Part shown: piece by piece, positions 1 to 62,060 of the stretch
How the letters are laid out: each line of letters begins with the position of its first letter
How positions within the stretch are numbered: the first letter of the stretch is position 1
Assembly (NCBI GenBank): GCA_965263035.1
Contig: OZ253580.1
Span: 1,952,001-2,016,000 of the forward strand
Origin: Acidobacteriota bacterium
GTDB lineage: Bacteria > Acidobacteriota > UBA6911 > RPQK01 > JAJDTT01
DNA: 64,000 nucleotides
Reading direction: 5' to 3'
The notes under the pieces: generated by a model
Database searches by the model: none
Seen by the model: only the letters and a program-made list of their open reading frames with translations
Told to the model about the DNA's origin: nothing
Made by a program: the position numbers and the translations under genes

Positions 1-557
1 AGCTCTATGCTGTCTGTCTGAAGTAGGTCAACCGGTTCCGCCTTAGACAACTTGGCGGCATTCTGATTCCCCATATGCCGATTTGCCGGATAGGGAATGA
101 CGAACGGGTCTACCGTCTTCTCGGGCTCGTTTACGGTTCGCCGTACGTCTTCGAGCTTGTTGTTTTTTGCGTCCAGCGTGATTCCGGTTTTTACCCGCGC
201 GGTCGACGATCGGAGTGACTCTAAAGTAGGGCTTTCGACCATCTCCGCTTGCAGTGCAGTGCGGCTGGCACCGTCACGGAACAACCTCTCCATGTCGGGA
301 GTATCCCGATCGTACAGACATGGTTGGATACCTGTCGGCCCACCCGCGGGTTGATAGTATGGCACCGGACGCATCCATGATAGACATTGCAGGAGGGTCG
401 TTTTGCCAACCCCGTTGTCGCCCACAAGCAAGGTCCAACGGGCTGGGCGATTGTTCGAGGCGGCAAGGTCCAGCACCTGCTTTTCCGCAAAGCAACGCAC
501 GTTCTCGATCTCGAGACTGAGGAAGTAGATCGCTTTCCGGCAGCATTTGGCTGACAT
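1..557 (-). CDS. ABC/AAA_21-type ATPase (PtuA-like, probable defence ATPase), runs off the left edge
   Basis: Not in the ORF track; translated by hand from ATG at 557: MSAKCCRKAIYFLSLEIENVRCFAEKQVLDL...WTLLVGDNGVGKTTLLQCL. Walker A GDNGVGKT and the typical LEIENVRCF N-terminus; open to position 1. Confidence 0.8.
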   Translation of the reverse strand, partial: MSAKCCRKAIYFLSLEIENVRCFAEKQVLDLAASNNRPARWTLLVGDNGVGKTTLLQCLSWMRPVPYYQPAGGPTGIQPCLYDRDTPDMERLFRDGASRTALQAEMVESPTLESLRSSTARVKTGITLDAKNNKLEDVRRTVNEPEKTVDPFVIPYPANRHMGNQNAAKLSKAEPVDLLQTDSIE

Positions 558-688
558 TCGAATCTCTAGATGATCGGTGAATATACACCGAGGACGGTCC
601 ACGCCGCCAAGTGTGTCGCATTTTACCGCAGGTCGACACACCGCCCGGCACATTCCGCTCGGAAAGTGATCGCGGTCATCCGATACTA

Positions 689-887
689 GGAAGTAACCCC
701 CACCCCAGCAGGGCTAAGAAATAAGGAAGCGATGAGGCTGATATTTTCTCCAAGCGAGCAAGGAGAAGATATCCGATCGGCAAGAGAAAGCGTTACAGTC
801 CGAAGTTCAAGTTTCAGGTGGTTCTGGAGATTCTGCGTCACCCGGACCTTCCAGGGGCACTCCCTCACATTCTCGAAGTGGAAGATG
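689..887 (+). pseudogene. Degenerate IS3-family left end and orfA fragment
   Basis: Translates to GKRKRYSPKFKFQVVLEIL, then in another frame VTRTFQGHSLTFSKWK (IS3 OrfA HTH-like). Ends just before array site 1. Confidence 0.55.
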
Positions 888-895
888 ACGGAAGA

Positions 896-921
896 GGGAG
901 AAGGGGACAGTTACCTTCTCT
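896..921 (+). repeat. Array site 1 (near-palindromic GGGGACAG site)
   Basis: GGGAGAAGGGGACAGTTACCTTCTCT; arms GAGAAGG/CCTTCTC. Confidence 0.9.
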
Positions 922-1076
922 ACTCGCGCTCGAATCCTGTTCCTGCACTTGGACCAGCTTTTCGATCCCACGTAACTCGGGTGCGCTACTCAAGCCTCCC
1001 TACCAAGCTAGCCACGTCACGGTAGTCCACAGACTCCCATCCAGGCCGAGAGAACAACCCTGGGCCCGATTTTTTC

Positions 1077-1102
1077 GGGAGAAGGGGACAGTTATCTTCT
1101 CT
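1077..1102 (+). repeat. Array site 2
   Basis: GGGAGAAGGGGACAGTTATCTTCTCT. Confidence 0.9.
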
Positions 1103-1399
1103 CTTCCTCGTCCGATGACTGGAAGCCTGAAAACGCCCGGAAAGACACGCTGTCACCAGAGCCGGACTTGGCCGGCCCTCTTCTCGGCCCGTTCCCGCTA
1201 GCGCGCTTGGCTCCTCACATACGCGAGGAACGCATGGGACCGATCGGCTGGTCGATCCGTGAGAATGCCATAGCGGCGACCGTATACCGTCCGCGCCGCC
1301 CGCAGTGGCTGATGAAGACGGCAGATGTTGTACTCGACGGCGCATGGTACGGGTATGGACACCGGTTGAGCCGTCTCCTGGAATCGTAAAAAATGGGCC

Positions 1400-1903
1400 A
1401 TGATGACCGACTACCTCATCCGGCCTGAGACGGACGGCGACCGGGAGGGAATCACAGGGCTTCTGCTCGCGGCTTTCCCCACTTCCTCCGAAGCCCGCCT
1501 CGTGCAGCGACTCCGCAAGGACGGCGATGTCGTGTTCTCGCTGGTCGCCGTGGAGGCTTCGGATGTCATCGGCCATGCCCTTTTCTCAAGACTGCGCGCA
1601 CCGGACGCGGCGCTCTCCCTGGCGCCGGCCGCAGTCGCGGCAAACCGCCGCCGCCGGGGGATTGCCGCCGCAATGATCGAGGCTGGACTTGAACGGGCAA
1701 GGGCGGAGTGCTGGGCGGCAGGCGTCGTGCTTGGCGATCCGTCCTATTACCGGCGCTTCGGTTTTAGCCGGAAGGCTGTGCGGGGCATGTCATGCCGATA
1801 TGCCGGGCCGGGTCTGATGGGCCTCGCCCTCTCCGGGGACGGCCTGGACGGACCGCGTATCGAACATGCGTCCGCCTTCTCATCGATCCGGGATTCCAAC
1901 TGA
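1400..1903 (+). CDS. GNAT N-acetyltransferase (YhbS-like), copy 1
   Basis: IRPETDGDREGI...EARLVQRLR...RRRGIAAAMI...VVLGDPSYYRRFGF motifs. Confidence 0.9.
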   Translation: MMTDYLIRPETDGDREGITGLLLAAFPTSSEARLVQRLRKDGDVVFSLVAVEASDVIGHALFSRLRAPDAALSLAPAAVAANRRRRGIAAAMIEAGLERARAECWAAGVVLGDPSYYRRFGFSRKAVRGMSCRYAGPGLMGLALSGDGLDGPRIEHASAFSSIRDSN

Positions 1904-2025
1904 GACACTGCCCTCGGGTGAGAATGCCGACCGCGTACCGCAACCCGGAATTTGCGGTGGATCTTGCCCATCCGCCCCAGAGCGGTAGAGTCCTCGTCAA
2001 GTTGACTCCAAGTCTGTCAAATCCC

Positions 2026-2149
2026 TCAGTCAATTTCGAACGTTACTGAAGTGCGGACGGAGTTGGCGATGAAGCACTCTTTGTGTGCAAGTTCGTGGAT
2101 CTTCTCCAACCCTTCCGGAGATGGAGGCAGGGATCCAAAGGAGACCTTG
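2026..2149 (-). pseudogene. 3' fragment of OsmC-family gene
   Basis: Matches the last about 40 codons of 8930-9376. Homology stops 6 bp before array site 3. Confidence 0.85.
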
Positions 2150-2155
2150 AGAAGC

Positions 2156-2181
2156 GGGAGAAGGGGACAGTCACCTTCTCC
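2156..2181 (+). repeat. Array site 3
   Basis: GGGAGAAGGGGACAGTCACCTTCTCC. Confidence 0.9.
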
Positions 2182-2183
2182 AG

Positions 2184-2553
2184 GAGGCTGTCCGAGAACA
2201 GAACTGTCACCGACGCTCCCAAATCTCGGGGGATCTGATCATCAGGAGAGTGTCGGATGCCCCCCGGGTTCAAGGCCTACCCGCAAGATTACTATCAGAG
2301 TCAGCAGTTTCCGGCCGACGTATTCGACTTGTTGCCGGAGGATCACAAGTGTTTCCTCTACCGGGATCTGTTCCGGCAGCTGGACACGACGGAAGTGGAC
2401 GCCCAGTACAGCTCCCAGGGTCAGCGGGCCTACGCGCCCCGGCAGATCGGCTCGATATTGATCTACGCTTACAGCCACGGGGTGTTCAGTTCCCGACAGA
2501 TCGAGCGGCGTTGCCGGGAGGATCTGGGGTTCCCGTACATCGCGGGTAAGAAC
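2184..2553 (+). mobile_element. Truncated IS1182-family element (left end plus about 99 transposase codons)
   Basis: Begins GAGGCTGTCCGAGAA like the full IS at 47810. MPPGFKAYPQDYYQSQQFPADVFDLLPEDH...YIAGKN is near-identical to the 47883 transposase and stops exactly at site 4. Confidence 0.92.
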
Positions 2554-2579
2554 GGGAGAGGGGGACAGTTACCTTCTCT
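2554..2579 (+). repeat. Array site 4
   Basis: GGGAGAGGGGGACAGTTACCTTCTCT. Confidence 0.9.
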
Positions 2580-2603
2580 ACGCCGTCCCCACTTGCTCCA
2601 TAG

Positions 2604-2972
2604 CCGATCCTGGGGACTCTGCTGCTGGCCTCCATCGAGACCACCCACGTCATCGGTCTTCGCGACCGGGCCGTCCTGGGGACCCTGATCTACACGGGCG
2701 GCCGCGTCGGAGCCATCACCCGGCTGCGGATCCAGGATCTGCGCGACCAGGGCAACCAGCGCTCGCTTCTGTTTGCCGAGAAGAACGGCAAAGCCCGGGA
2801 GACCCCCGTGCGCCATGATCTGGACCGATGGCTCACGGCCTACATCGAAGGGGCCGGGCTCAGCGCCGCGCCCAAGGGGTCGGTGAAGTTTCGGGCCGGA
2901 CTGCGGCGCTGCAGCTCCCTCACCGATCGGCCGATGTCTCCCCATCCCGTTCTTCACGCTGCCGATCCATAA
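2604..2972 (+). pseudogene. Tyrosine recombinase/integrase internal fragment
   Basis: Hand translation: LLASIETTHVIGLRDRAVLGTLIYTGGRVGAITRLRIQD...EKNGKARETPVRHDL (box I Arg and Lys loop). No start codon, no HxxR or catalytic Tyr region. Confidence 0.85.
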
Positions 2973-3009
2973 CTTCTGATTATATCTCGGGCTCCATCCC
3001 GGAGTTCAT

Positions 3010-4677
3010 CTACTCATCTTCGTCTGAAGCGTCGCTATCAGCAATGGTCGCTGCCGTCCGCTCCGTCGGCAGCTTTACGTTCTGTGCTCTCATAAATGTC
3101 CGCTCACCATCTATTAGGGTCTCCAGCCGATCTCGGATTAGACCCGCTCGGTCGCCGTTTCGTAACAAATGGACTGCTTCCGCTGGGAAGCCGTGTCTCG
3201 GTAGTAGCTCCATCAGAACGTCGTCACTCAAGTCAGCCAGGGCGCCGAACGCTTGACCAACGTGGCCACTGTCGAGGAACATGCGATTCGCGGGGCTACT
3301 AAAAAGTTCCCCGATTATCCGCGAGCTGGAAAACACATATCCCACAGCCTTAGTTCCTAAGGTAGAAAGCAGCTGACCCGGATCGAGGTTGCCCTCACCA
3401 CTAAGCGCACGAGGCTGAAGCGACGCAAGGTAGAGCAAAAAGGCACGTACGCGGGCGCTTCGACCATCGAAGCGATCGGGAAACGGCCGAGCCGGTGCGT
3501 CGAAGTCTACAACTCTGAACCCAGTCCCCTTGCCCCTAGCAAGGTTTCGGATCTCGCTCAACGCTTGAGTAGCTTGCGCAGTGTTGACTCCTCCAAACCA
3601 GCCGGTGAATGACGTCACCCAGAACCAGCGGTTCAGCAACTTGACCACTTCGGCGGACGGCGTTGGGCACCACCGGAAAAACTCACCGAGCAGCACAAGC
3701 TGGAGCCCATAGGGCAGCAATCGATCGGATGTAACGCCCAGGTCCTTGAGAAAGATCAGCGCACCTCTGATTCCTTTCGCCGCGATGTCGAAGGCTTCTG
3801 GAAGCTTCGTCCGGACCTCCGGCTTGACCATGAGGTCCGCCCAGTCTTTCGCGTAGATATCTCGGTCGAGGGCTGCAAGCACCGACCTGAGAAGGAGGAC
3901 ACGATCGAGATTGCCAAACCCCTTTCTGTCGAGCTCTTCCTTGAACTCGTCCAGCTTCTCGGCAAGATGGAACTCCCCTTCTCGGTAGGTCAGCGCGGAG
4001 ACCATCTCGTCGGCCGTCATCTTGCGCCCCTTGCGGTTGAGTCGGGCGAAGACTGTGACGGCACTGTCGAGGTCCGCCTCGCGGATATGAATAAGCGGGA
4101 GCTGATAGTCTCGAAACGCGTTCGCGAGGCGATCTGCTTCGTTGATCCAGCGTAGTATCCGCATGTCGGAAACTCCCGATTCGATGATGCGGCGGCACGC
4201 GGTAAAGAATCCGGCGGTGTTGAGCAGGCTCCCCACCGGGAAATGCTGTGGCTCGACCCCACCCGTGGGTGATCGGAGGAACTCCTGGTTTTCGAGGTCG
4301 CAGTACACGCGCCAGTCAACTTGATCCACGATCGATTCCGCCTTTTCAGGTAACCGCAGCGTGCCTACGAGGGTCGACACGCGCTGCTGACCGTCGAGCA
4401 GGTAGCCAACGAGCCCATCCGGGCGAGGACTGATGTCGATCGGCCCGACGCGCTGGTTGGTCTCGATAGTTTCCTCTGTGTCCCAGACGAGGATAGAGCC
4501 GATCGGAAAACCGCGCAAAACGCTGTCGAGCAACGCGTGCAGGTCTGGTTGCTTCCACACGAAAGCACGTTGGAACCTCGGCACGCGGATTTTTCCAGCC
4601 GCTATGCGTTCCACGAGTTTGCCCAGAAAAACAACTTCTGGGACGACCTCTGTGCGAGCCTGCCTACCGTTGGACAT
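3010..4677 (-). CDS. DUF262 (ParB/Srx-fold, GmrS-like) domain protein
   Basis: PRFQRAFVW, DSVLRGFPIGS, LLDGQQRVSTL and VFARLNRKG motifs. Confidence 0.88.
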   Translation of the reverse strand: MSNGRQARTEVVPEVVFLGKLVERIAAGKIRVPRFQRAFVWKQPDLHALLDSVLRGFPIGSILVWDTEETIETNQRVGPIDISPRPDGLVGYLLDGQQRVSTLVGTLRLPEKAESIVDQVDWRVYCDLENQEFLRSPTGGVEPQHFPVGSLLNTAGFFTACRRIIESGVSDMRILRWINEADRLANAFRDYQLPLIHIREADLDSAVTVFARLNRKGRKMTADEMVSALTYREGEFHLAEKLDEFKEELDRKGFGNLDRVLLLRSVLAALDRDIYAKDWADLMVKPEVRTKLPEAFDIAAKGIRGALIFLKDLGVTSDRLLPYGLQLVLLGEFFRWCPTPSAEVVKLLNRWFWVTSFTGWFGGVNTAQATQALSEIRNLARGKGTGFRVVDFDAPARPFPDRFDGRSARVRAFLLYLASLQPRALSGEGNLDPGQLLSTLGTKAVGYVFSSSRIIGELFSSPANRMFLDSGHVGQAFGALADLSDDVLMELLPRHGFPAEAVHLLRNGDRAGLIRDRLETLIDGERTFMRAQNVKLPTERTAATIADSDASDEDE

Positions 4678-4681
4678 GACG

Positions 4682-5644
4682 CTAGACTTCCTTCCGAATC
4701 AGGGAGATGCCACGCTCAAGGTCACCTTGTCCGCGGCTAAGAAGTTCAATCTTGGCCTGCACGTTGCAGAGATTCCAGCACTTGTACACATTCCGTCCAA
4801 ACCCACTAGAGAGGAGCGTTTGGACGGCCGAGCACAGTCCCTGAAACAGTGTCTTCTCAATCGCAGAGGGCGTTTCGGGCAAGCCATGCTTCATGTCGAA
4901 GAAGTTCTTCTGATCGTCGTTGAGACTGTCCCATGCTTCAACCAACCGGCCATGGTCTGCGCCTGCGTTCTCCCGCTCACTGAGGAGGATTCGCGGGAGG
5001 TAGTTCTCGGCCTCCCGTTTGGCCAGAACCCAGCAGGACAGACCCAGCTTCCCGCATACATGACGCAACCTTCGAGCTGTTGCGCTGCTCGTAGCGGCGG
5101 GATCCTTCCTGCCGCTATCGATGATGGCCACCAACCGTGGGCGAAACGGGATCCCCTGCACCCGACGTTTGATCTCCTCCAGCATTTGTCCCTGGCCGCC
5201 CAAGCTGTCAATTCGGATAGGATCTCCATTCTGATTCCACAGGCGAAAAAGGGCTTTGTCGAGCTCCTTCACGACGCGCTTCACGAACGCACCATCACTG
5301 ATCCGATTCTCGACCAGAATCACGAACGGTTCCTCGGCAAGGCGGGTAGCGTTCTCTGGCTCAAGTTCATCCGCAGCAGCTGGATGTGCCGTTACGCGTA
5401 CGCGTCTCCCGTGCGGGGCCAAGGTCCAGGCACTACGCCGGATCGATGCGACGAGTAATTGGCGCACCCAATCGCCTTGGGTTCCACGGTCACCAATCCA
5501 CGTCGTGGCCTGGAAGGCATTGGGATCCAACTGACACGTTGTGTCCCACACGTGCCAGCCATCTTCGATCTTGTACAGAATACGATCCAACCAGCTGTGG
5601 GCATCCGGATCATTCGCTGCGCTGAAGTCGATCTCGATGCGCAT
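4682..5644 (-). CDS. Hypothetical protein with OLD/TOPRIM-like motifs
   Basis: ILVENRISDGAF, LGGQG, AIIDSG, KREAENYLP. Lies 4-5 bp from the flanking genes in an operon. Confidence 0.6.
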   Translation of the reverse strand: MRIEIDFSAANDPDAHSWLDRILYKIEDGWHVWDTTCQLDPNAFQATTWIGDRGTQGDWVRQLLVASIRRSAWTLAPHGRRVRVTAHPAAADELEPENATRLAEEPFVILVENRISDGAFVKRVVKELDKALFRLWNQNGDPIRIDSLGGQGQMLEEIKRRVQGIPFRPRLVAIIDSGRKDPAATSSATARRLRHVCGKLGLSCWVLAKREAENYLPRILLSERENAGADHGRLVEAWDSLNDDQKNFFDMKHGLPETPSAIEKTLFQGLCSAVQTLLSSGFGRNVYKCWNLCNVQAKIELLSRGQGDLERGISLIRKEV

Positions 5645-5649
5645 CGAGT

Positions 5650-6882
5650 TTATCCCGCTGGCCGAGCGGCGCGCCGAATGGCCAGGATCTCCTCATAGTC
5701 CTCGATGAAGACGCCATCCGGCCAGCTGTCCAATTCACCACTCTCGCTCATTCTGATTTTCCGCAGAATTGATCCACGCCCTGGCTCCGTGCGAATCCAG
5801 TAAACAATGATATTTTCGGCCGGCAGTCGCCCCTCCGCAATCCAGCGTCTCGCGCGGAGTAGGAACATCTCCGAGTGAGTCTCGACGACCAGAGGCCGGG
5901 CGGGTCCTGCGAGGTTATCGAGCAAAAGCTCCGCGATATCCGCGTGGGCTGCTGGATGGAGCTCAGCCTCCGGATGCTCGATGATGTCGACACCCGGCCC
6001 TGCCTTGCGGGCCGTCAGTGCCGTCACCACGACCGGCAGAACCTGCGAGAGCCCCTGGCCCGATTGCACGAGTCGCACGTTGGCGTCGCGGGCCGGCGCT
6101 CCAACCACTAGTTCAGAGTAGATGCCCTGCGCCACAACATCGATACTCACCCCGAAGGTCCTGCGATACCATTCCCGAACGGATTTCCTCAGCTCATCGT
6201 CCGCCGCCAGCGCCAGGGGCGTATCCTGCCCGTTCGGCCCAAGAACCCTAGGCGAGTGTTCTACCCTGGTGAACGGCGACGCGAGAAGGCTACGTGGGCA
6301 CTGCAAATAGCGAACGCCGCGGGCCCAAGCTCTGAGGGCATCGACTTGCGCACCGGCCCAGTTCGCAAGATTGTCCGGATGGCCGGGGATCAGCCCTCGC
6401 CAACCGATCTGCCGCGGGGCCTGCTCTGCTCCCGAGACACAAACTTGGTAGGGGGATCGTTCGTCGAACCCTTGCCGTTGCACCACGATCTCATCGCCGC
6501 CTCTCCTGAGGCTCCAGTGCGAAATCTGGCGCTCGGATGGCCGGGCCGGCGCTACCACATTCCGAACGGTGGCCGAGAACGATAACTCGCTGCTCCCGTC
6601 CGCCAGGCCGGCGGACAATCTCAGCCGACCATGCACGGTGCGCCCGGTCACTAAGTCCTCGAACGTCTCCCCGTGGCGGATTCCACCAGACTCCAGCGGA
6701 AGCGGCTCCGAGGTGTCCTCCCCTAAAGGGGCCAAGCCGCCCGCTAACAACTGAATCACCTGAGCCAGAGCCGTTTTACCCGAATTATTGGATCCCACCA
6801 GGATGGTCAGAGGAGCGAGTTCCACCTTGGCCAACTCAGCGTAGCCCTTATAACGTTCGACACTGAACTCTCGGAGTTCCAT
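5650..6882 (-). CDS. ABC-type ATPase with DUF3696-like C-terminus
   Basis: Probable start MELREFSVERYKGY at 6882. Walker A GSNNSGKT, signature SGQGLSQVLP, IIEHPEAELHP, VETHSE, C-terminal WPDGVF. Confidence 0.88.
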   Translation of the reverse strand: MELREFSVERYKGYAELAKVELAPLTILVGSNNSGKTALAQVIQLLAGGLAPLGEDTSEPLPLESGGIRHGETFEDLVTGRTVHGRLRLSAGLADGSSELSFSATVRNVVAPARPSERQISHWSLRRGGDEIVVQRQGFDERSPYQVCVSGAEQAPRQIGWRGLIPGHPDNLANWAGAQVDALRAWARGVRYLQCPRSLLASPFTRVEHSPRVLGPNGQDTPLALAADDELRKSVREWYRRTFGVSIDVVAQGIYSELVVGAPARDANVRLVQSGQGLSQVLPVVVTALTARKAGPGVDIIEHPEAELHPAAHADIAELLLDNLAGPARPLVVETHSEMFLLRARRWIAEGRLPAENIIVYWIRTEPGRGSILRKIRMSESGELDSWPDGVFIEDYEEILAIRRAARPAG

Positions 6883-6967
6883 TGCCGAATTACCATAGCA
6901 ACTCGTGGCAGAAGGGGCCAACTGTAAGGTGTCGGCTGTCGCCGCGTTTGTCACGCAGAACGGAAGA

Positions 6968-6993
6968 GGGAGAAGGGGACAGTTACCTTCTCT
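6968..6993 (+). repeat. Array site 5
   Basis: GGGAGAAGGGGACAGTTACCTTCTCT, identical to site 1 and part of the duplication. Confidence 0.9.
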
Positions 6994-7102
6994 ACTCGCG
7001 CTCGAATCCTGTTCCTGCACTTGGACCAGCTTTTCGATCCCACGTAACTCGGGTGCGCTACTCAAGCCTCCCTACCAAGCTAGCCACGTCACGGTAGTCC
7101 AC

Positions 7103-7989
7103 TCCTGGGACTGAAGACCATCTACCCGAAGCCGAGAACCAGCACGGCCCGGCCGGAACACCGCGTCTACCCCTATCTGCTCCGGGGCCTGAAGATCGAC
7201 GAACCCCATCAGGTCTGGTGCGCGGACATCACGTATATCCCGGTCTACAAAGGGTATTTGTACCTGGTGGCGGTGATGGACCGGGCCAGTCGGTACGTAC
7301 TGTCGTGGCGGTTGTCCAACACCCTGGACAGCGAGTTCTGTGTCGAGGCTTTGGAAAGGGCGCTCTCCCAAGGGGTCCCGACGATCTTCAACACGGATCA
7401 GGGGGCGCAGTTGACGAGCCGGGTGTTCACCGAGCGGGTGCAGGCGTCCGGGGCGCGGTGCTCGATGGACGGTCGCGGTCGTTGCCTGGACAACGTGTTC
7501 ATCGAACGGCTGTGGCGGTCGCTGAAGTACGAAGCCGTGTACCTGCGGGAACTGGTGGACGGATTCGAGGCGTCACGGGTGATCGGGGAGTGGATGGAGT
7601 TCTACAACGGGGAGCGGCCGCACTCGGCGCTGGGTGGGCGGACCCCACGGGAAGCTCACCACGGGAGGGAGGCAGCGTGAAGTCGGGACACCGGAGCTCC
7701 GGATACGCCCTGGGGAGCGTCGAGTCAAGCCTCCGGCTCCTCCGCCTCGCTGCGGCCCTTCGGGTGACTCGACGCTCCCCAGGGCGTGAAGATCTGTCAT
7801 GGCCGGAAGGGGACTTCCGGCCCTCTCGGACCGGAAACGACCACTTACATCACCACAACCAAGCGGCAAGCTGGCGTCGCTCGGCGGCGCCATGTCCCCT
7901 GGATTTGAGGGCGGAATTTCACTATCGGAGTCTACTTTTCCCTACCTTAATTTGGCCCTCAAATGGTCCAACGAACCAGGACCGCCTCA
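7103..7989 (+). mobile_element. 5'-truncated IS3-family element (orfB DDE core and right end)
   Basis: IYPKPRTS...VWCADITYI...IFNTDQGAQ...DNVFIERLWRSLKYE, stop at 7680. Right end ...GGTCCAACGAACCAGGACCGCCTCA. Confidence 0.9.
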
Positions 7990-8006
7990 GGGCAGTTATC
8001 TTCTCT
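7990..8006 (+). repeat. Array site 6 (right half only)
   Basis: GGGCAGTTATCTTCTCT abuts the IS3 right end; corresponds to site 2. Confidence 0.75.
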
Positions 8007-8303
8007 CTTCCTCGTCCGATGACTGGAAGCCTGAAAACGCCCGGAAAGACACGCTGTCACCAGAGCCGGACTTGGCCGGCCCTCTTCTCGGCCCGTTCCC
8101 GCTAGCGCGCTTGGCTCCTCACATACGCGAGGAACGCATGGGACCGATCGGCTGGTCGATCCGTGAGAATGCCATAGCGGCGACCGTATACCGTCCGCGC
8201 CGCCCGCAGTGGCTGATGAAGACGGCAGATGTTGTACTCGACGGCGCATGGTACGGGTATGGACACCGGTTGAGCCGTCTCCTGGAATCGTAAAAAATGG
8301 GCC

Positions 8304-8807
8304 ATGATGACCGACTACCTCATCCGGCCTGAGACGGACGGCGACCGGGAGGGAATCACAGGGCTTCTGCTCGCGGCTTTCCCCACTTCCTCCGAAGCCC
8401 GCCTCGTGCAGCGACTCCGCAAGGACGGCGATGTCGTGTTCTCGCTGGTCGCCGTGGAGGCTTCGGATGTCATCGGCCATGCCCTTTTCTCAAGACTGCG
8501 CGCACCGGACGCGGCGCTCTCCCTGGCGCCGGCCGCAGTCGCGGCAAACCGCCGCCGCCGGGGGATTGCCGCCGCAATGATCGAGGCTGGACTTGAACGG
8601 GCAAGGGCGGAGTGCTGGGCGGCAGGCGTCGTGCTTGGCGATCCGTCCTATTACCGGCGCTTCGGTTTTAGCCGGAAGGCTGTGCGGGGCATGTCATGCC
8701 GATATGCCGGGCCGGGTCTGATGGGCCTCGCCCTCTCCGGGGACGGCCTGGACGGACCGCGTATCGAACATGCGTCCGCCTTCTCATCGATCCGGGATTC
8801 CAACTGA
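8304..8807 (+). CDS. GNAT N-acetyltransferase, copy 2
   Basis: Translation identical to 1400-1903. Confidence 0.9.
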   Translation: MMTDYLIRPETDGDREGITGLLLAAFPTSSEARLVQRLRKDGDVVFSLVAVEASDVIGHALFSRLRAPDAALSLAPAAVAANRRRRGIAAAMIEAGLERARAECWAAGVVLGDPSYYRRFGFSRKAVRGMSCRYAGPGLMGLALSGDGLDGPRIEHASAFSSIRDSN

Positions 8808-8929
8808 GACACTGCCCTCGGGTGAGAATGCCGACCGCGTACCGCAACCGGGAATTTGCGGTGGATCTTGCCCATCCGCCCCAGAGCGGTAGAGTCCTCG
8901 TCAAGTTGACCCCAGGTTTGTCAAATCCC

Positions 8930-9376
8930 TCAGTCGATCTCGAACGTTACTGAAGTGCGGACGGAGTTGGCGATGAAACACTCCTTGTGTGCAAGTTCGT
9001 GGATCTTCTCCAACCCTTCGGGAGATGGTGGCAGGGATCCAAAGGAGACCTTGGGATGGAGAACCACACGAGTCACGGCCAACTTCCCATCCGCGTTCTT
9101 CTCCAGGAATCCTACCGCTGCATCCTGGTAGCGATCCACGACCAGCCGCTTTCGAGCAGCGATCGCGAGAAAGGTGAGCATATGACAACTCGCGAGTGAC
9201 GCAACATATGCCTTTTCGGGATCGACCAGGTTCGGATTCCCAAAGAAGGCGGGCGCTGCGGACGCACTGACTCGAACCCCACCCTCAAACTTCCAAGTGT
9301 GATCGCGGGAGTAGGACCGGTACTTGAATTCGACAGAGCCCCTTTCCCATTCCACTGTCGCGTGATGCTCCGACAT
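8930..9376 (-). CDS. OsmC/Ohr-family protein
   Basis: YSRDHTW, VDPEKAYVASLASCHMLTFL, AHKECFIANSV with two conserved Cys. Start taken as MSEHHATVEW. Confidence 0.9.
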   Translation of the reverse strand: MSEHHATVEWERGSVEFKYRSYSRDHTWKFEGGVRVSASAAPAFFGNPNLVDPEKAYVASLASCHMLTFLAIAARKRLVVDRYQDAAVGFLEKNADGKLAVTRVVLHPKVSFGSLPPSPEGLEKIHELAHKECFIANSVRTSVTFEID

Positions 9377-9660
9377 GTCTCGATTCCTCTGATCTGTGGT
9401 GAAATTACCTTTCCCGTCCTCCACGGCCGATTTCGGCTGGGAGCCCCACAAGACGACCCCTCTTCAAACGCGATGACAAATGCGAGGCTAAGGCCCTATA
9501 CCCTACTCCCTTGCCCCGACCGAGATCGCCGATCGCAGGCCTCGTCATGCACTCGATTATTTCGTGGACCCAGCTTGACTGAAATCGCGTGGTGCAGTCG
9601 CCAAGTCCCGACTCGCCGCCGCGCTTGAAGCCCTGGAACATCCGGCGCATCATGATCGCC

Positions 9661-12600
9661 ATGAGACAAATTTCATTTTCCCGTATTCAACCGGCTGCGA
9701 TTCAGCCTCAGACAGTCCAACCCGCGAATCGAAGCAGGCTCCACGGGTTTCTGATGCTCGTGACTCTGCTTCTGCCTCTCGCCTGCACGGGCGGTCCGGA
9801 TGAGGAACGGGAAGAGTGGCGGCGGATCACCGATATCTCCAGAAATCCGGATCAGCTCCGCGAGTACCTGAAACCGATACCGGCGCTGGATCCGGCCGAA
9901 TCCCTGAAGACCATCGAGGCCGCCGAGGGCTTCCGGGTGGAACTGGCTGCCCACGAGCCTCAGGTGGTGGAACCGTTGTCCGCCACCTTCGACGAGAACG
10001 GGCGCATGTACGTGGCCGAGTTCTACGGCTACCCGCGCCAGCCGCGGCCCGGCGAGGCCGGCACGGGCCGGATTCGGATGTTGGAGGACCGGGACGGAGA
10101 CGGCTACTACGAAACGGCCCAGGTCTTTGCCGACAAGCTGGTCTGGCCCACCGGCGTGGCGGTCTGGAAAGGGGGGCTCTTCGTCTCGGCGCCGCCGGAC
10201 GTCCTCTACTTCAAGGACACGGACGGCGACGGCCGGGCCGACGTCCGGAAGCAGATCTATACCGGTTTCGGCGTCACCAACGAGCAGCAGATGCTCAACA
10301 ACATCATGTGGGGCGTCGACCACAAGATCTACGCCTCCACCGGCGGCAACGGCGGCTACATTCGTCCGGGAGGCCAGCCCGAGGCCGAGCCCGTCTCCGT
10401 CTACAACCGGGACTTCCGCTTCAGTCCGGTGAGCCTCGAAATGGAGCTCACCAACCAGACCTTTCAGTTCGGGTACACCTTCGACGAGTGGTTCAACCGC
10501 TACGTCTGCCGGGCGGGATCCTTCGGCCGGCATGTGGTCATGCCGCCCGGATACCTGGAGCGGAACCCCTACCTCTTCTTCGACCTCCACGGGTACCTGA
10601 CCATGGGTTCCATGGAGGTCAACCCGCTGACCCAGGGACGGCTCCCCATCTACCGGAGCAGCCCCATCGAACGGTGGCGCAAGATTCGGGAGGCCCGGCG
10701 GATCTTCGCGGGAAGAATCGCGCGGCTCGAAGAGGGCGGCCGGGAGAACTACCAGGAGTTCGCCGCCGCTTGGGCGGGAGTGAAAGTCTACACCGGACAC
10801 GCGTATCCGGAGGAGTACCGGGGCAATATCTTCACCGGAGCCGCCACTGCCAATCTGTTCCACCGGCGCGTCCTGGAACCCGACGGTGTCACCTTCAAAG
10901 CGGTTCGCCGCGAACCCGAAGGCAAGGAATTCCTTCGTTCCAGCCACAACTGGTTCCGTCCCATCAACTCGGTCAACGCTCCCGACGGGACTCTCTACGT
11001 GCTGGACATGTGCCGCGAACTGGTTGAGCACGGCCACGTCCCGGAACGGGTTCTCGAGCATCTGGATTTCTCCCGAGGTTCCGAACACGGACGGATCTAC
11101 CGGGTGGCGCCGCTCGATTTCAAGACGCCTCCGGCACCCCGGCTGGGCGAGGCCGGCATTCAGGAGCTGGTGGGACATCTGGAGCACCCTGGCGGCTGGT
11201 GGCGGGAGACGGCGCACCGGCTCATCTTCGAGCGCCAGGACAAAGCCGCGGTGCCGCTGCTGCGGCGCCTGCTGAAGGAGAGCGAGCGTCCGCTGGCCCG
11301 GATGCACTCCTTCTGGTCGCTCCACGGATTGGGCGCTCTCCGGAACGAGGACGTGGCCCGGGCGTTGTCCGATTCCTCCCCCGGGGTCCGGGAGCACGCC
11401 GTGCCGCACGCGGAGCAGCGGATGAAGCGTTCCGGACGGCTCTTCCGGAAGATCCTGGAGCTGGCCGGGGACGAGAATCCCCGGGTGCGCCTGCGGGTAG
11501 CCCTGGCTCTGGGAGAGATCGGGGACCGGCGGGTTCTCCCGGCCCTGGTGAAGATCGCCCGCAGCGATGCCGGAGACCGCTGGATCCGAAACTCGGTCCT
11601 GAGCTCCAGCACCCGCCTGGCCGACCGGCTCTTCACGAAGCTGGCGGACCTGGAAGAGTTTCAGCAGGAGCCGCTCGCGGGACAGTGGCTGCCTCCGTTG
11701 GCCCGCGTCGTCGGGGGCCGGGGCAAAGCCTCGGAACTCCGCCGTCTGACCCGAGCGGCGGCCACCCACGCAGCGCTGGCCTCACAGCCGGACCTGCAGT
11801 TGGCCATCGTGACCAGCCTCGCCGAGGGACTCGCCATCGACGGCCGGACTTTCACCCGCCTCAACAACATCCATCCGGCAGCCACCCGCATGATCCGCAC
11901 GCACTTCGAGGCCGCTCTCGCGGCGGCTGCCGACATTGAGGTCCCCGAAGAAAAACGCCTGGCGGCGATTCGGCTGATCCGGCACGCCACTCTTGAAGAG
12001 GTCCAGGAGGCCCTGACGAATCTGATCGATCCCCGGCAGCCCCAAGCGGTGCAGCTCGCCTCCATCGAGGCTCTGGCCGGCTACGACGATTCGGAGATCG
12101 CCCCGCTCCTGCTGGAGTCGTGGGGCGCCCAGACGCCCAAAGTCCGGGGCGGCGTCCTTTCGGGAGTGCTGTCGCGGGCGGAATGGACCCGCGCCCTGCT
12201 GGACGCCATCGAGTCCGAGACGGTGCCGGCCCACCAGATCGACGCCAAACGCCGCGAGCTCCTGACGAACCACAACGACCAGGGGATCCGCGACCGGTCT
12301 CTGCAACTCTTCGAGGCCTCCACGCCCGGTGACCGGCTGGAGGTTCTGGCCAACTACCAGGCCTCCTTGACGCTGCCGGGAGACCGGGGACGCGGCGAGA
12401 AGGTCTACCGCCGCGAATGCATCAAGTGCCATCGGTTGGGCTCCACCCGGCATCTGGTCGGTCCGAATCTTATCGTGGCCGGCTACCAGGACCGGGATAC
12501 GCTCCTGACCAGCATCCTGGATCCGAACCGGGTCGTGGAGCCCCAGTTCACCCAGTACGTGGTGACCGACCGGAAGGGCCGTCTCTACACCGGCCTCATG

Positions 12601-60264: not shown

Positions 60265-60282
60265 TCCGGATCGTTGGCTTGG

Positions 60283-60912
60283 ATCGGGTCGAGTGCAGGG
60301 GATTGCGCCCCTGCACCCTCCCACACCACCGGACGTACCGTTTTCAGTATCCGGCGGTTGGAGTCACTCGAGGCTCTTTCGAGCCTCGTAAAGGGCCTTT
60401 CTTTCCGGTTTTCGCCGCCGCTGGGACTTGATCTCCGCCCTTCCGGCTTGACGGGTTCCACCCTTGGGCCTTCCGTGCCGGGTCCGAGGGGCCTCCCCCC
60501 GCCCCGTTTCCGGAGGTAGTTGCGATCCCGCTGACGAGTCCACCATAGGGCCCGTCCGACTCCTTCGGTCCTTCGCTCCACCGGCATTATCCGGCTTCTT
60601 CGCTACTATGACCTCTGCTGACTTCTCAAAGGCTCTCACCCTTGAGATCTCCCCGAGTAAGGTGCTGCATCTTTCCCCCCGGGCCGCCCGGCTCTACCTG
60701 GTACGTCTGGATGGGGTTCGGGTTTCGCTGTTGCTCGCCAGCTCACCGCCCGCACCCGGCCTCGCTGCCGGTTCGTGTTCCTGCGGTCGTGGGTTTGCCT
60801 TCCGCTTCCTTCAGCTTCACCTCGCGGCTACGCCTTGCGGTTCGGCTAGGGTTGGTCCCATCACCTCCCTTGGGATCTTTCATCCCTTAGATACAGCCCA
60901 TGTCGGGCGCAC
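60283..60912 (-). ncRNA. ORF-less group IIC intron
   Basis: 5' GTGCGCCCGACATGGG; domain V/VI AACCGCCGGATAC...GTACGTCCGGTGGTGTGGGAGGG...CGACCCGAT 3'; no RT ORF; follows a hairpin. Confidence 0.88.
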
Positions 60913-60970
60913 GAGCGGCGGCTTTCTTGCCGCCGACCAGGGGGGCAAAGGGGGGACGGAGTCCCCACTT
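60913..60970. repeat. REP-like palindrome (intron target)
   Basis: GAGCGGCGGCTTTCTTGCCGCCG identical to the 17723 REP. Confidence 0.8.
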
Positions 60971-61136
60971 TACACTCTCCGGCCGCCGAACTCCGAGAGC
61001 AACACAGAAGTCCTTCACCGGCCGTCCTCCAGCGCGATCCAACCAGAAAAACCGGGTGGATGGGAGCAACAGCTTTCCAGCCGCCGGGTTCGGGTCGGTG
61101 ATGAAGACGGGGGACAAGACTGTCCCCCCTCCCAGG

Positions 61137-62060
61137 TCAATTCGCCTTCAGCCGGGTGAAGGCTTCCATTTCCCGCGCCGCATTCTCAATCTGATCCTGC
61201 TCCTGATAGATCTGGGCCAGGATGTAGTGCGGCTCAGCCAGATCGGGGTCGAGCTCCACACACTTCAGGGCCGAAGAGACGGCTTTCTCCAGCCGTCCCA
61301 GCTCCCGGTAGGCCTTGGCCAGGAGCAGGTGCAGATGGCTCGGGGGAAGAGCGGTCAGCGTGACGTAGAGCCGCCGGCTCTTGGCCACCGCCACCGCCCG
61401 GCGATCACGGCTGTAGAACCCGGTCTCGGCGATTTGCAGATGCCCCAACGCTTCCGCCGCCTGTCCCTGCTTCAGCAGCATCTCCGCCAACTCGAGCCGG
61501 GCCACCACGTTCTTGGGATAGAGTCCGATCTCGGCGGCAAGCTCTCGAATGGTGTCTTCCGCGGCCCCGTTGTTTCGATGGACCCGGGCCATATGGTAGT
61601 GCAGCGTGGGAAAGCTGTAATCGGTTGCGGCGATGGAACTGAACTCCTCCAAGGCCTGTCCGAGACGGTTGAGCTCGTGGTAGGTCCGGCCCAGGTAGAA
61701 GCGGGTCATCAGGTTCGTCCCATCCATCTCGACGGCCCGCTGCAACAGGGGCAGGGCTTCTTCCTGCCCCTGTTGCTGGAGCAGGATGACGGCCAGGTCG
61801 AAGTGACGGCCGGGCTGGTCCGGCCCCAGCTCGACGGATCGTCTCAGGCTCGCTTCGGCCTCGGGCAACTGCCGCAACTGGGCGAAGATCAGTCCCTGGA
61901 GATGATGGCCGGCGGCGTTGTCGGGGTCCTCCGCCAGGAGCTCGCGGGTGACGGCCAAGGCTTCAGGGTAGTTCCTCTGCTGAAAGTGGCGGACCGCCTC
62001 GTCGTAGCTCTGACCCCAGAGCGGCAGGAAGCCGAGGCCCCAGACGAGTGTCGCAAGCAT
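61137..62060 (-). CDS. Tetratricopeptide repeat protein
   Basis: Signal peptide MLATLVWGLGFLPLWGQ; repeated TPR helices (AAGHHLQG, RFYLGRTY, PHYILAQIY). Confidence 0.85.
   Translation of the reverse strand: MLATLVWGLGFLPLWGQSYDEAVRHFQQRNYPEALAVTRELLAEDPDNAAGHHLQGLIFAQLRQLPEAEASLRRSVELGPDQPGRHFDLAVILLQQQGQEEALPLLQRAVEMDGTNLMTRFYLGRTYHELNRLGQALEEFSSIAATDYSFPTLHYHMARVHRNNGAAEDTIRELAAEIGLYPKNVVARLELAEMLLKQGQAAEALGHLQIAETGFYSRDRRAVAVAKSRRLYVTLTALPPSHLHLLLAKAYRELGRLEKAVSSALKCVELDPDLAEPHYILAQIYQEQDQIENAAREMEAFTRLKAN

What the first reader, a model, noticed from the sequence alone, without database searches (positions are those of the whole stretch)
689..9376. Integron-like DNA-capture array punctuated by co-oriented GGGAGAAGGGGACAGTYAYCTTCTC palindromic sites
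Seen: six copies of a 23-26 bp near-palindrome, all on the same strand, at 896, 1077, 2156, 2554, 6968 and a half copy at 7990. Sites 5 and 6 belong to a duplication, so four contexts are independent. The segments between them are unrelated and range from about 155 bp to 4.4 kb. Their coding content breaks at or near the sites: IS3 orfA remnant before site 1, OsmC 6 bp before site 3, IS1182 transposase exactly at site 4 (YIAGKN|site), a headless ORF after site 2 and a headless integrase just after site 4. Cargo is defence/stress-type. Knowledge: these are not attC sites (no RYYYAAC...GTTRRRY), CRISPR repeats or IS TIRs. From memory, GGGG(A/T)CAG-type short repeats have been reported next to RAYT-like HUH (Y1) transposases; this needs verifying. 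Inference: an enzyme uses these sites to capture arbitrary DNA fragments and stack them into an array, a poorly described acquisition platform. No intact cognate enzyme is in the window.
Basis: partly seen in the sequence, partly recalled or inferred. Interest (0 to 1): 0.88.

Follow-up and report, generated by a model that had tools for sequence, protein, structure and literature searches.

The report
Palindrome-bounded gene cassette arrays
A 23-base palindrome marks the joints between swappable blocks of genes in several hypervariable regions of one Acidobacteriota genus, much as in an integron, but the integron enzyme and site type are missing and the responsible enzyme is unknown.

Summary
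GAGAAGGGGACAGTYACCTTCTC occurs five times plus one half copy in window 689-9376, all on the + strand (0 expected). Genome-wide there are 71 copies with up to 3 mismatches, packed into about 15 clusters. Neighbouring copies share orientation in 46 of 49 pairs. The motif is in 8 of 8 genomes of the genus and almost nowhere else. Two arrays were compared across the genus: one 149 nt behind the tmRNA gene, and the window's own locus. Both lie between conserved genes and vary from 1.2 kb with no site to 39 kb. Homology blocks start at the site. One 97-codon cassette present in this genome is replaced in a relative by a single hybrid site. A 4-kb defence cassette (PDC-M55) is 99% identical between two species. 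IS1182-like, IS3-type and integrase genes are cut at the sites. No integron integrase exists in the genus, the site is not an attC, and it does not flank a RAYT gene. Best reading (0.5): an integron-analogous cassette system using a short site and an unidentified recombinase. Main rival (0.25): a REP-like palindrome that is merely a hotspot for general recombination and IS insertion.

The parts
898..920 (+). site 1 (GAGAAGGGGACAGTTACCTTCTC)
   Evidence: lies inside the 143-nt duplication 888-1030 = 6960-7102
1079..1101 (+). site 2
   Evidence: Together with site 1 it bounds a 158-nt ORF-less unit. A 95%-identical copy of that unit precedes a site at genome 1947396
2158..2180 (+). site 3
   Evidence: An OsmC 3' fragment ends 7 nt before it, and the IS1182-like terminus starts 1-2 nt after it
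2556..2578 (+). site 4
   Evidence: It cuts the IS1182-like element after nt 373. A public-run contig spans it unchanged
6970..6992 (+). site 5 (duplicate context of site 1)
   Evidence: The PDC-M55 block ends at 6958, 12 nt before it
7990..8005 (+). half site (GGGCAGTTATCTTCTC), a copy of site 2 whose left arm is replaced by an IS3-type right end
668..887 (+). TGA-initiated end with a short frame that looks like an IS3 orfA; cut at 887/888
   Evidence: read. No Pfam match and no other copy in the genome, so the identity is unconfirmed
1400..1903 (+). GNAT acetyltransferase (second copy at 8304-8807)
   Evidence: Pfam. Present in the 'empty' locus of relative G001
2043..2149 (-). 3' fragment of OsmC (full copy at 8930-9451)
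2182..2553 (+). first 373 nt of an IS1182-like element (DUF772 transposase N-terminus)
2580..2945 (+). internal fragment of a Xer-like tyrosine recombinase (P0001 family, residues about 135-254)
2947..6958 (-). PDC-M55 candidate defence cassette: M55C/GmrSD-like 3010-4677, M55B 4682-5644, M55A ATPase 5650-6882
   Evidence: PADLOC and Pfam. It is 99% identical to a block in another species, G007
7103..7989 (+). 3' part of an IS3-type element (rve domain 7105-7677) carrying a 130-nt palindromic repeat at 7693-7823
8930..9451 (-). intact OsmC gene. In contigs of two public runs a site is joined, through 11 other letters, 4 nt beyond its stop codon

Best explanation
The 23-bp near-palindrome is the recombination site of a genus-specific cassette system that works like an integron without belonging to that family. 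In this model a circular segment carrying one site integrates at a resident site, Campbell-fashion. That builds arrays of direct, co-oriented sites separating unrelated cargo: defence systems, toxin-antitoxin pairs, metabolic genes and dead mobile elements. Recombination between two resident sites removes a cassette again. Occasional recombination between a site and a look-alike sequence cuts whatever gene lies there, which would explain the headless and tailless IS and integrase genes in the window. SHOWN: the clustering, the co-orientation, the restriction to one genus, blocks that begin at the site, cassette presence/absence with a hybrid site, hypervariable loci between conserved genes, and a near-identical cassette in two species. 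INFERRED: the circular intermediate, the action of a dedicated recombinase, and its identity. The only candidate with any support is the multi-copy Xer-like tyrosine recombinase family P0001, and that support is weak.
For: 1) Not chance and not scattered. There are 71 copies with up to 3 mismatches. 49 of 70 neighbour gaps are at most 10 kb, against a mean of 7.6 and a maximum of 19 in 2000 random placements. 46 of the 49 close pairs share orientation. The clusters are listed.
2) Orientation is a property of the array. It follows neither the replichore (skew turns at about 2.85 and 5.8 Mb, and both orientations occur on both arms) nor gene direction (genes run with the sites at 2.28-2.31 Mb and mostly against them at 5.548-5.559 Mb).
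3) Distribution. 8 of 8 genomes of the genus carry it, 0 of 6 of the sister genus, and 1 of 26 others of the order. The exact pattern occurs only in records of this group among 185,579 species genomes. A relaxed pattern hits 7 of 301 Acidobacteriota.
4) The array behind the tmRNA gene is orthologous in 8 genomes. Homology blocks start within a few nt of a site's first base, while the DNA upstream differs. Among between-genome site pairs, 55 share only the right flank, 11 only the left and 7 both. In right-only pairs, identity falls to background exactly at position -1.
5) A clean indel. G000 has L1-site-[97-aa HTH cassette]-site-R2. G003 has L1-one site-R2. That single site carries the rare left-arm variant AATGGG of the first G000 site and the right flank of the second.
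6) The window's locus lies between conserved flanks in the seven genomes compared (G006 and G008 were not, their locus being split over contigs). It is 1.2 kb with no site in G001, has one site in G004, and spans 18.4 kb in G000 and 39 kb in G007.
7) The PDC-M55 block (window 2947-6958) is 99% identical in G007, where conserved flanks are 86-92% identical, and it has different neighbours there.
8) Contigs of two runs from two studies join a site to the OsmC cassette in an arrangement absent from G000.
Against: No recombinase is linked to the arrays. No integron integrase was found in 9 genus genomes. The Y1 transposases are not adjacent. Only 1 of 5 large-serine-recombinase copies or fragments lies within 3 kb of a site. 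P0001-family genes occur next to sites at only 3 of 15 places. No full-length P0001 gene was found in G004, G005 or G008, which still have arrays, and the family occurs in the sister genus, which lacks the motif.
The joints are not always clean. Unrelated spacers of 5-70 nt often lie between the end of a conserved block and the next site. Breaks occur at the left edge, the right edge and possibly the centre of the site. The pair counts are dominated by a few block families and are not independent.
A 23-bp repeat could in principle support rare RecA-dependent or microhomology events. IS elements abut or interrupt sites, as they do with REPs. A relaxed pattern finds the same core as inverted doublets forming long hairpins in unrelated metagenome contigs, which points to a REP- or terminator-like ancestry. 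No circular intermediate was seen, and contigs cannot show one.
Confidence: 0.5

Rival explanations
1. The motif is a REP-like or terminator-like extragenic palindrome with no enzyme of its own. It marks imported DNA. Rearrangements end at it because short identical repeats and hairpins are hotspots for RecA-dependent, microhomology-mediated or replication-slippage events, and for IS insertion. Arrays are co-oriented only because Campbell-type insertion and tandem duplication always give direct repeats.
For: The motif is short, imperfectly palindromic, genus-specific and mostly extragenic (median 72 nt to the nearest end of a crudely called ORF). It folds as single-stranded DNA at -5 to -9 kcal/mol with z-scores of -1 to -3.9. 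An IS1182-like terminus lies 1-4 nt from a site twice, and an IS3-type end lies inside a site, as is known for REPs (recalled). Joints have variable spacers and use both edges. A left half-site stands within 30 nt upstream of 12 of 71 sites, against 0 of 71 in controls, which looks like decay products. G001 joins core DNA to the GNAT block at a look-alike of the right arm. The same core occurs as inverted, REPIN-like doublets in at least 9 of 92 metagenome loci. No linked recombinase was found.
Against: The copies are confined to about 15 islands and do not spread through intergenic DNA. Inverted doublets are almost absent in this genome, with 3 opposite pairs of 49. No copy flanks a RAYT gene. 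This reading does not say how the same 23-mer came to bound nearly every unrelated cassette. Twenty-three bp is at the lower limit for RecA-dependent exchange (recalled). Blocks start at the first base of the site in up to 8 genomes, which is sharper than expected for slippage.
Confidence: 0.25
2. The hairpin is the origin or terminus signal of a single-strand (HUH, IS200/IS605- or IS91/Helitron-like) transposition process. Copying starts at one hairpin and ends at the next, or at a look-alike. That would give units made of a site plus DNA to its right, with variable right ends and captured gene fragments.
For: The site travels with the block on its right far more often than with the block on its left (55 against 11 pairs; sharp drop at -1). 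Right ends of blocks are followed by variable filler. One relative has [site + first 190 nt of a block][site + another cassette][site + the whole block] (G007). Gene fragments lie beside sites. The genome has two Y1_Tnp genes and many TnpB-only elements.
Against: Orientation is not tied to the replication direction, as expected for Y1 elements (recalled). The Y1 genes have no motif core near them. No Y2/IS91-type gene was found, although that search also rang in no control genome. Left-flank-only sharing also occurs, and the clean hybrid-site indel fits conservative recombination.
Confidence: 0.1
3. The arrays are ordinary integron cassette arrays (CALINs) with divergent attC sites, or they are an assembly artefact at a repeat.
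For: They are co-oriented arrays of cassettes that include toxin-antitoxin pairs. Acidobacteria are among the taxa with their own attC type, according to passages of PMC8352920.
Against: No integron integrase above the curated cut-off occurs in 9 genus genomes. Conservation is limited to 23-27 nt with no R''/L''-L'/R' architecture. Rfam gave no match in 1-12000. Against an artefact: the same architecture is in 8 genomes, 6 of them in one or two contigs, and independent contigs span sites 3 and 4.
Confidence: 0.03

Closest known systems
Chromosomal integrons and CALINs (attC cassette arrays)
   Same: Co-oriented arrays of short recombination-type sites separate unrelated cassettes of one or a few genes, including toxin-antitoxin pairs. 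Cassette content differs between related genomes with breakpoints at the sites. The site travels mainly with one neighbouring cassette.
   Different: No IntI occurs in the genus. The site is a 23-27-nt sequence-conserved palindrome, not a 55-140-nt structure-conserved attC (attC features recalled). Genes lie in both orientations. There are many arrays per genome, and no attI-integrase platform was found.
pdif modules and other Xer-dependent mobile elements (recalled from the literature)
   Same: Short palindromic sites of about 28 bp bound gene modules that have no recombinase of their own and are moved by an enzyme encoded elsewhere. A Xer-like recombinase family (P0001) is abundant here.
   Different: pdif modules are flanked by inversely oriented sites, whereas these sites are direct. 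The 23-mer bears no evident likeness to the dif-like palindrome that stands in front of the P0001 genes. The chromosome's own dif site was not located.
Composite SCC islands of staphylococci (Ccr large serine recombinases; recalled)
   Same: Tandem cassettes, some without a recombinase, are separated by direct copies of a short integration sequence and moved in trans.
   Different: SCC uses one chromosomal target, whereas this genome has about 15 loci. The 694-aa serine recombinase here only distantly resembles XisF/CcrA and lies near 1 array.
REP/BIME/REPIN elements and Neisseria dRS3/NIME arrays (recalled)
   Same: These are genus-specific short palindromes in extragenic DNA. They are targets of IS elements and are found at the borders of variable regions. 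dRS3 arrays likewise separate short unrelated segments.
   Different: There is no RAYT association. The copies are few, strictly clustered and co-oriented, and they bound kilobase-sized gene cassettes.
Tandem accretion of genomic islands at tRNA/tmRNA genes, such as tycheposon islands (recalled)
   Same: The largest array begins 149 nt behind the tmRNA gene, and others lie near tRNA genes. The cargo is defence and niche genes. Integrase remnants are present.
   Different: The repeated site is not derived from a tRNA or tmRNA gene. The best match in or within 60 nt of any of the 64 such genes has 9 of 23 mismatches. Most cassettes carry no integrase.

Membership tests
Integron / CALIN | Integron integrase (IntI) in the genome or beside the array | tested here: not met
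   TIGR02249: the best hit in G000 scores 78.7 bits against a cut-off of 265. None of 9 genus genomes has a match at E <= 1e-25.
Integron / CALIN | attC architecture (R''-L''...L'-R', 55-140 nt, RYYYAAC/GTTRRRY; recalled definition) | tested here: not met
   In 71 aligned sites, information content is confined to positions 0-23, with weak CGG at -3..-1. No such boxes appear in the sequences.
Integron / CALIN | Co-oriented array whose cassettes are gained and lost at the sites | tested here: met
   46 of 49 close pairs are co-oriented. Block starts, an indel and replacements fall at sites in 8 genomes.
REP / REPIN-RAYT | Short imperfect palindrome, extragenic, specific to a narrow taxon | tested here: met
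REP / REPIN-RAYT | Copies flank a RAYT (Y1_Tnp) gene | tested here: not met
   There are two Y1_Tnp genes. No GGGACAG or GACAGTC core lies within about 1.5 kb of either.
REP / REPIN-RAYT | Dispersed through intergenic DNA, often as inverted doublets | tested here: not met
   In G000 the copies are clustered, with 3 opposite pairs of 49. Inverted doublets of a related core do occur in at least 9 of 92 metagenome loci of unknown origin.
Xer/dif modules | Site related to the host's dif and bound by XerC/XerD | not tested
   The chromosomal dif was not located. Binding cannot be tested with these tools.
Xer/dif modules | Modules flanked by inversely oriented sites (pdif; recalled) | tested here: not met
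   The sites are direct repeats.
SCC-like elements (large serine recombinase) | Ccr-type recombinase in or beside the arrays | tested here: inconclusive
   A 694-aa serine recombinase has 4 copies. One lies 1.6 kb behind an array and one 9.5 kb from another. 1 of 5 copies or fragments lies within 3 kb of a site.
Single-strand / rolling-circle transposons (IS200/IS605, IS91) | HUH enzyme linked to the hairpins, and orientation tied to the replication direction (recalled) | tested here: not met
   Y1 genes are unlinked. The Y2 search found nothing but its controls were also silent. Both orientations occur on both replichores.
tRNA/tmRNA-targeting island accretion | The repeated att site is a copy of the 3' end of the tRNA or tmRNA gene | tested here: not met
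   The best match of the 23-mer in or within 60 nt of the 64 tRNA/tmRNA genes has 9 mismatches. Proximity itself is met for the tmRNA gene (149 nt), tRNA-Ala (285 nt) and tRNA-Phe (964 nt).

The most novel reading that the evidence does not exclude
This may be a previously undescribed gene-capture platform, analogous to integrons but built from different parts. It would use a 23-bp double-strand palindromic site and a non-IntI recombinase encoded away from the arrays. The Xer-like P0001 family and the host Xer proteins are the leads. The platform would stockpile and exchange defence, toxin-antitoxin and metabolic cassettes at a dozen or more chromosomal loci and pass them between species of the genus. 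The PDC-M55 cassette at 99% identity in two species is an example.
Probability: 0.35. Interest if true: 0.85.

Novelty: new variant of a known kind. Interest (0 to 1): 0.7.

Why it matters
Integrons are the only well-understood system in which bacteria stockpile promoter-poor gene cassettes at a dedicated site. If a second, unrelated site and enzyme pair does the same job, cassette platforms would be a convergent solution, not a single invention. It would also explain how defence islands in this lineage are assembled and shuffled. A 23-bp site with a simple recombinase could be a compact tool for DNA integration. Even under the modest reading (a palindrome that is only a recombination hotspot), the motif is a practical marker for hypervariable islands in these genomes. 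It also gives a clean set of natural breakpoints for studying how such islands turn over.

Tried and rejected
Enzyme hunts that found nothing linked to the arrays:
- TIGR02249 in G000 and in the genus.
- Y1_Tnp.
- Y2_Tnp (its controls were also silent, so this is not proof of absence).
- Resolvase and Phage_integrase maps, with distances to sites.
- A tblastn of 28 recombinase-like proteins of G000 against the arrays of the relatives. It gave only fragments, one P4-like integrase next to the tmRNA gene of G001, and pieces that proved to be dispersed short repeats.

A protein family recurring near 7 arrays gave no Pfam match. Its sequence looks like a secreted enzyme with a signal peptide, not a recombinase.

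tRNA or tmRNA origin of the site is rejected. A replichore explanation of orientation is rejected. An Rfam match for the site region was not found.

Scans of viral contigs and a strict scan of metagenome contigs found nothing. The relaxed scan gave 92 loci of unknown organisms, part of which may be chance.

Reads: all four runs are kept as contigs, so circles, depth and absence cannot be judged. Stretches without cover and the joints with sides of 21-29 letters at repeated sites (921>2159, 2178>6968) are not used. The joints 1043>6968 and 1043>896 are the paralogous unit at genome 1947390, not variants.

G023 of another family has five tandem copies of a non-palindromic variant within 320 nt. 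This was not informative.

Two full-text searches listed no paper describing such arrays. Only listings were seen, plus passages of PMC8352920. No structure prediction, complex prediction or large protein search was run.

Full report
WHAT IS IN THE WINDOW. The degenerate 23-mer matches at 898, 1079, 2158, 2556 and 6970, always on the + strand. No match occurred in 100 shuffles. The repeat finder gives the same five copies as a 30-nt family. It also shows two duplications, 888-1030 = 6960-7102 and 1086 onward = 7990 onward. The 'half copy' at 7990 is a copy of site 2 whose left arm has been replaced by the right end of an IS3-type element (rve domain at 7105-7677).

The order of segments in the window is:
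- an unconfirmed IS3-orfA-like stub (668-887);
- site 1, a 158-nt ORF-less unit, and site 2;
- a short frame, a GNAT gene and the last 35 codons of OsmC;
- site 3;
- the first 373 nt of an IS1182-like element;
- site 4;
- an internal piece of a tyrosine recombinase;
- a three-gene PDC-M55 defence cassette on the minus strand;
- site 5 with the first 110 nt of the ORF-less unit;
- the 3' part of an IS3-type element;
- the half site, then the second copy of the short frame and GNAT, and an intact OsmC.

THE MOTIF GENOME-WIDE. The window is 1,952,001-2,016,000 of a single 6.2-Mb contig. With up to 3 mismatches there are 71 copies, and with up to 5 there are 91. They form about 15 clusters plus 15 singletons. 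Of 70 neighbour gaps, 49 are at most 10 kb, against a mean of 7.6 and a maximum of 19 for random placement. Of the 49 close pairs, 46 share orientation. Spacings run from 48 to 7375 nt. The window's array extends 9 kb to the left of the window and has 10 sites, all on +.

Conservation is limited to the 23 nt, a weak CGG before them and a T after them. The sequence is an 11+1+11 palindrome with one fixed mismatch (G8/A16). Its arms sometimes change in a compensating way, for example GAAATGG...CCATTTC. As single-stranded DNA it folds only modestly, at -5 to -9 kcal/mol. Orientation differs between arrays on the same replichore. It also differs in its relation to gene direction. It is therefore a property of each array.

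WHERE ELSE. With up to 2 mismatches the motif is in 8 of 8 genomes of the genus (10-62 hits each). It is in 0 of 6 genomes of the sister genus, and appears once in 26 other genomes of the order. The reversed control pattern gave no hits. The exact pattern occurs in 17 stretches of 5 records titled Acidobacteriota among the species genomes. A relaxed pattern occurs in 7 of 301 Acidobacteriota genomes. Viral contigs gave none. A relaxed scan of metagenome contigs gave 92 loci. In at least 9 of them the core occurs twice in inverted orientation, 25-64 nt apart, making a long A-tract/T-tract hairpin. The core therefore exists elsewhere in a REPIN- or terminator-like form.

COMPARISON OF ORTHOLOGOUS ARRAYS. 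The largest array (2,278,208-2,310,794; 18 sites, 17 of them on the minus strand) begins 149 nt behind the tmRNA gene. It is present in all genomes of the genus. When the arrays are oriented by the sites, homology blocks begin within a few nt of a site's first base, and the DNA upstream is unrelated. This holds in 8 of 8 instances for one block and in most instances for two others. Between genomes, 62 site pairs share the flank on the right of the site and 18 the flank on the left. Of these, 55 share only the right, 11 only the left, and 7 both. These pairs are not independent. With flanks defined at least 30 nt away from the site, identity in 50 right-only pairs stays at 0.6-0.98 down to the site. 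It drops to background at position -1. In 6 left-only pairs it drops just after the site.

One event is clean. In G000 two sites enclose a 97-codon HTH gene. G003 has a single site with the rare left arm of the first G000 site and the right flank of the second. Other differences are replacements, a partial duplication ([site + 190 nt of a block][site + another cassette][site + the whole block] in G007) and moved blocks. Between the end of a conserved block and the next site there are often 5-70 nt of unrelated filler. A left half-site stands within 30 nt upstream of 12 of 71 sites, against 0 in controls.

THE WINDOW'S OWN LOCUS. Its conserved left and right flanks are found in all genomes. Between them G001 has only GNAT and OsmC and no site (1.2 kb). 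G004 has one site exactly between the left flank and GNAT. G003 and G005 have about 5 kb, G000 and G002 about 18 kb, and G007 39 kb. In G001 the joint lies at a look-alike of the site's right arm. The PDC-M55 block (2947-6958) is 99% identical in G007, where the conserved flanks are 86-92% identical. There it has other neighbours: a GNAT cassette on one side and the last codons of a P0001-type recombinase gene on the other. Short-read contigs of public runs span sites 3 and 4 unchanged. In two runs of two studies they join a site, through the same 11 letters, to a point 4 nt beyond the OsmC stop codon. That arrangement is not in G000.

THE ENZYME QUESTION. No integron integrase is present. The two Y1 transposases have no motif core near them. 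The Xer-like family P0001 has about 15 copies or fragments. Sites join it at four different positions:
- four codons before its stop (the copy that heads the 11-site array at 5.548 Mb);
- directly before residue 105;
- before about residue 135 (the window);
- after residue 71 (a relative).

Every P0001 copy or fragment that lies near sites is co-oriented with them (6 of 6, at 5 loci). Against this, three intact copies have no site within tens of kb. No full-length copy was found in G004, G005 or G008. The family also occurs in the sister genus. Each intact copy has its own dif-like palindrome just upstream. A 694-aa serine recombinase lies near one array only. The enzyme is therefore unknown.

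READING. The pattern has four parts: direct repeats bounding unrelated cargo, blocks delimited at the repeat, hybrid sites after loss of a cassette, and empty and filled states of the same locus. This is what conservative recombination of one-site circles would give, and it is integron-like in logic. Membership in the integron family fails on both defining features. The main rival is a REP-like palindrome that only attracts general recombination and IS elements. That rival explains the untidy joints and the IS contacts. It does not explain the strict clustering or how the same 23-mer came to bound nearly every cassette. I put 0.5 on the cassette system, 0.25 on the hotspot reading, 0.1 on a single-strand or rolling-circle process and 0.03 on a classical integron or an artefact. 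The rest stays open.

Noticed in passing
window 60282-61140 (Rfam matches at 60568-60831, minus strand): An ORF-less group II intron (RF02001 at 81 bits, RF01998 at 47 bits), present in about 20 copies in the genome. About 200 nt upstream of its 5' end lies a palindrome, GGGGGACAGTCTTGTCCCCC, which shares the GGGACAGTC core with the finding's motif.
   Followed up: partly
genome 1,299,000-1,365,000 and window 38533 (minus strand): A second motif family, GAAAAGGGACAGTCTATTTCTTCC, with the same core. It is also clustered and mostly co-oriented, and it may be a sister site type.
   Followed up: no
genome 2087369-2088391, 3683196-3684218, 5547241-5548258, 5656001-5657018 (outside the window): Multi-copy units of about 1.05 kb. 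Each is a Xer-like tyrosine recombinase gene preceded by a conserved dif-like palindrome (GTACGATAAAG[G/T]ATATTATACGTA). They look like mobile recombinase-plus-site modules.
   Followed up: partly
window 7693-7823: A 130-nt repeat with 23-nt perfect inverted arms, present in about 12 copies at 87-91% identity. One copy lies about 230 nt from the ORF (about 600 nt from the Pfam hit) of one of the two Y1_Tnp (possibly RAYT) genes, at genome 2483721. It may be that gene's REPIN.
   Followed up: no
L043 4000-5246 (genome 1946000-1947246): A TnpB-only IS605-type element (OrfB_IS605 plus a Cas12f-like TNB domain). There is one more identical copy in G000 and at least 12 copies in relative G007.
   Followed up: partly
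window 2947-6958: A PDC-M55 A/B/C candidate defence operon, 99% identical between two species whose conserved genes are 86-92% identical. This indicates recent transfer.
   Followed up: partly
genome 16989-17096 and about 160 other places: A repeat of about 108 nt read as the first 36 codons of an integrase ORF. It is a dispersed MITE-like element at 83-94% identity, and a second repeat of about 170 nt interrupts the recombinase gene at 4176007.
   Followed up: no
L145 5530-5870 (G023, another family of the order): Five tandem copies of GAGAAGGGGACAGTCACGATTTC within 320 nt of a repetitive intergenic stretch. Here the right arm is not complementary to the left.
   Followed up: no
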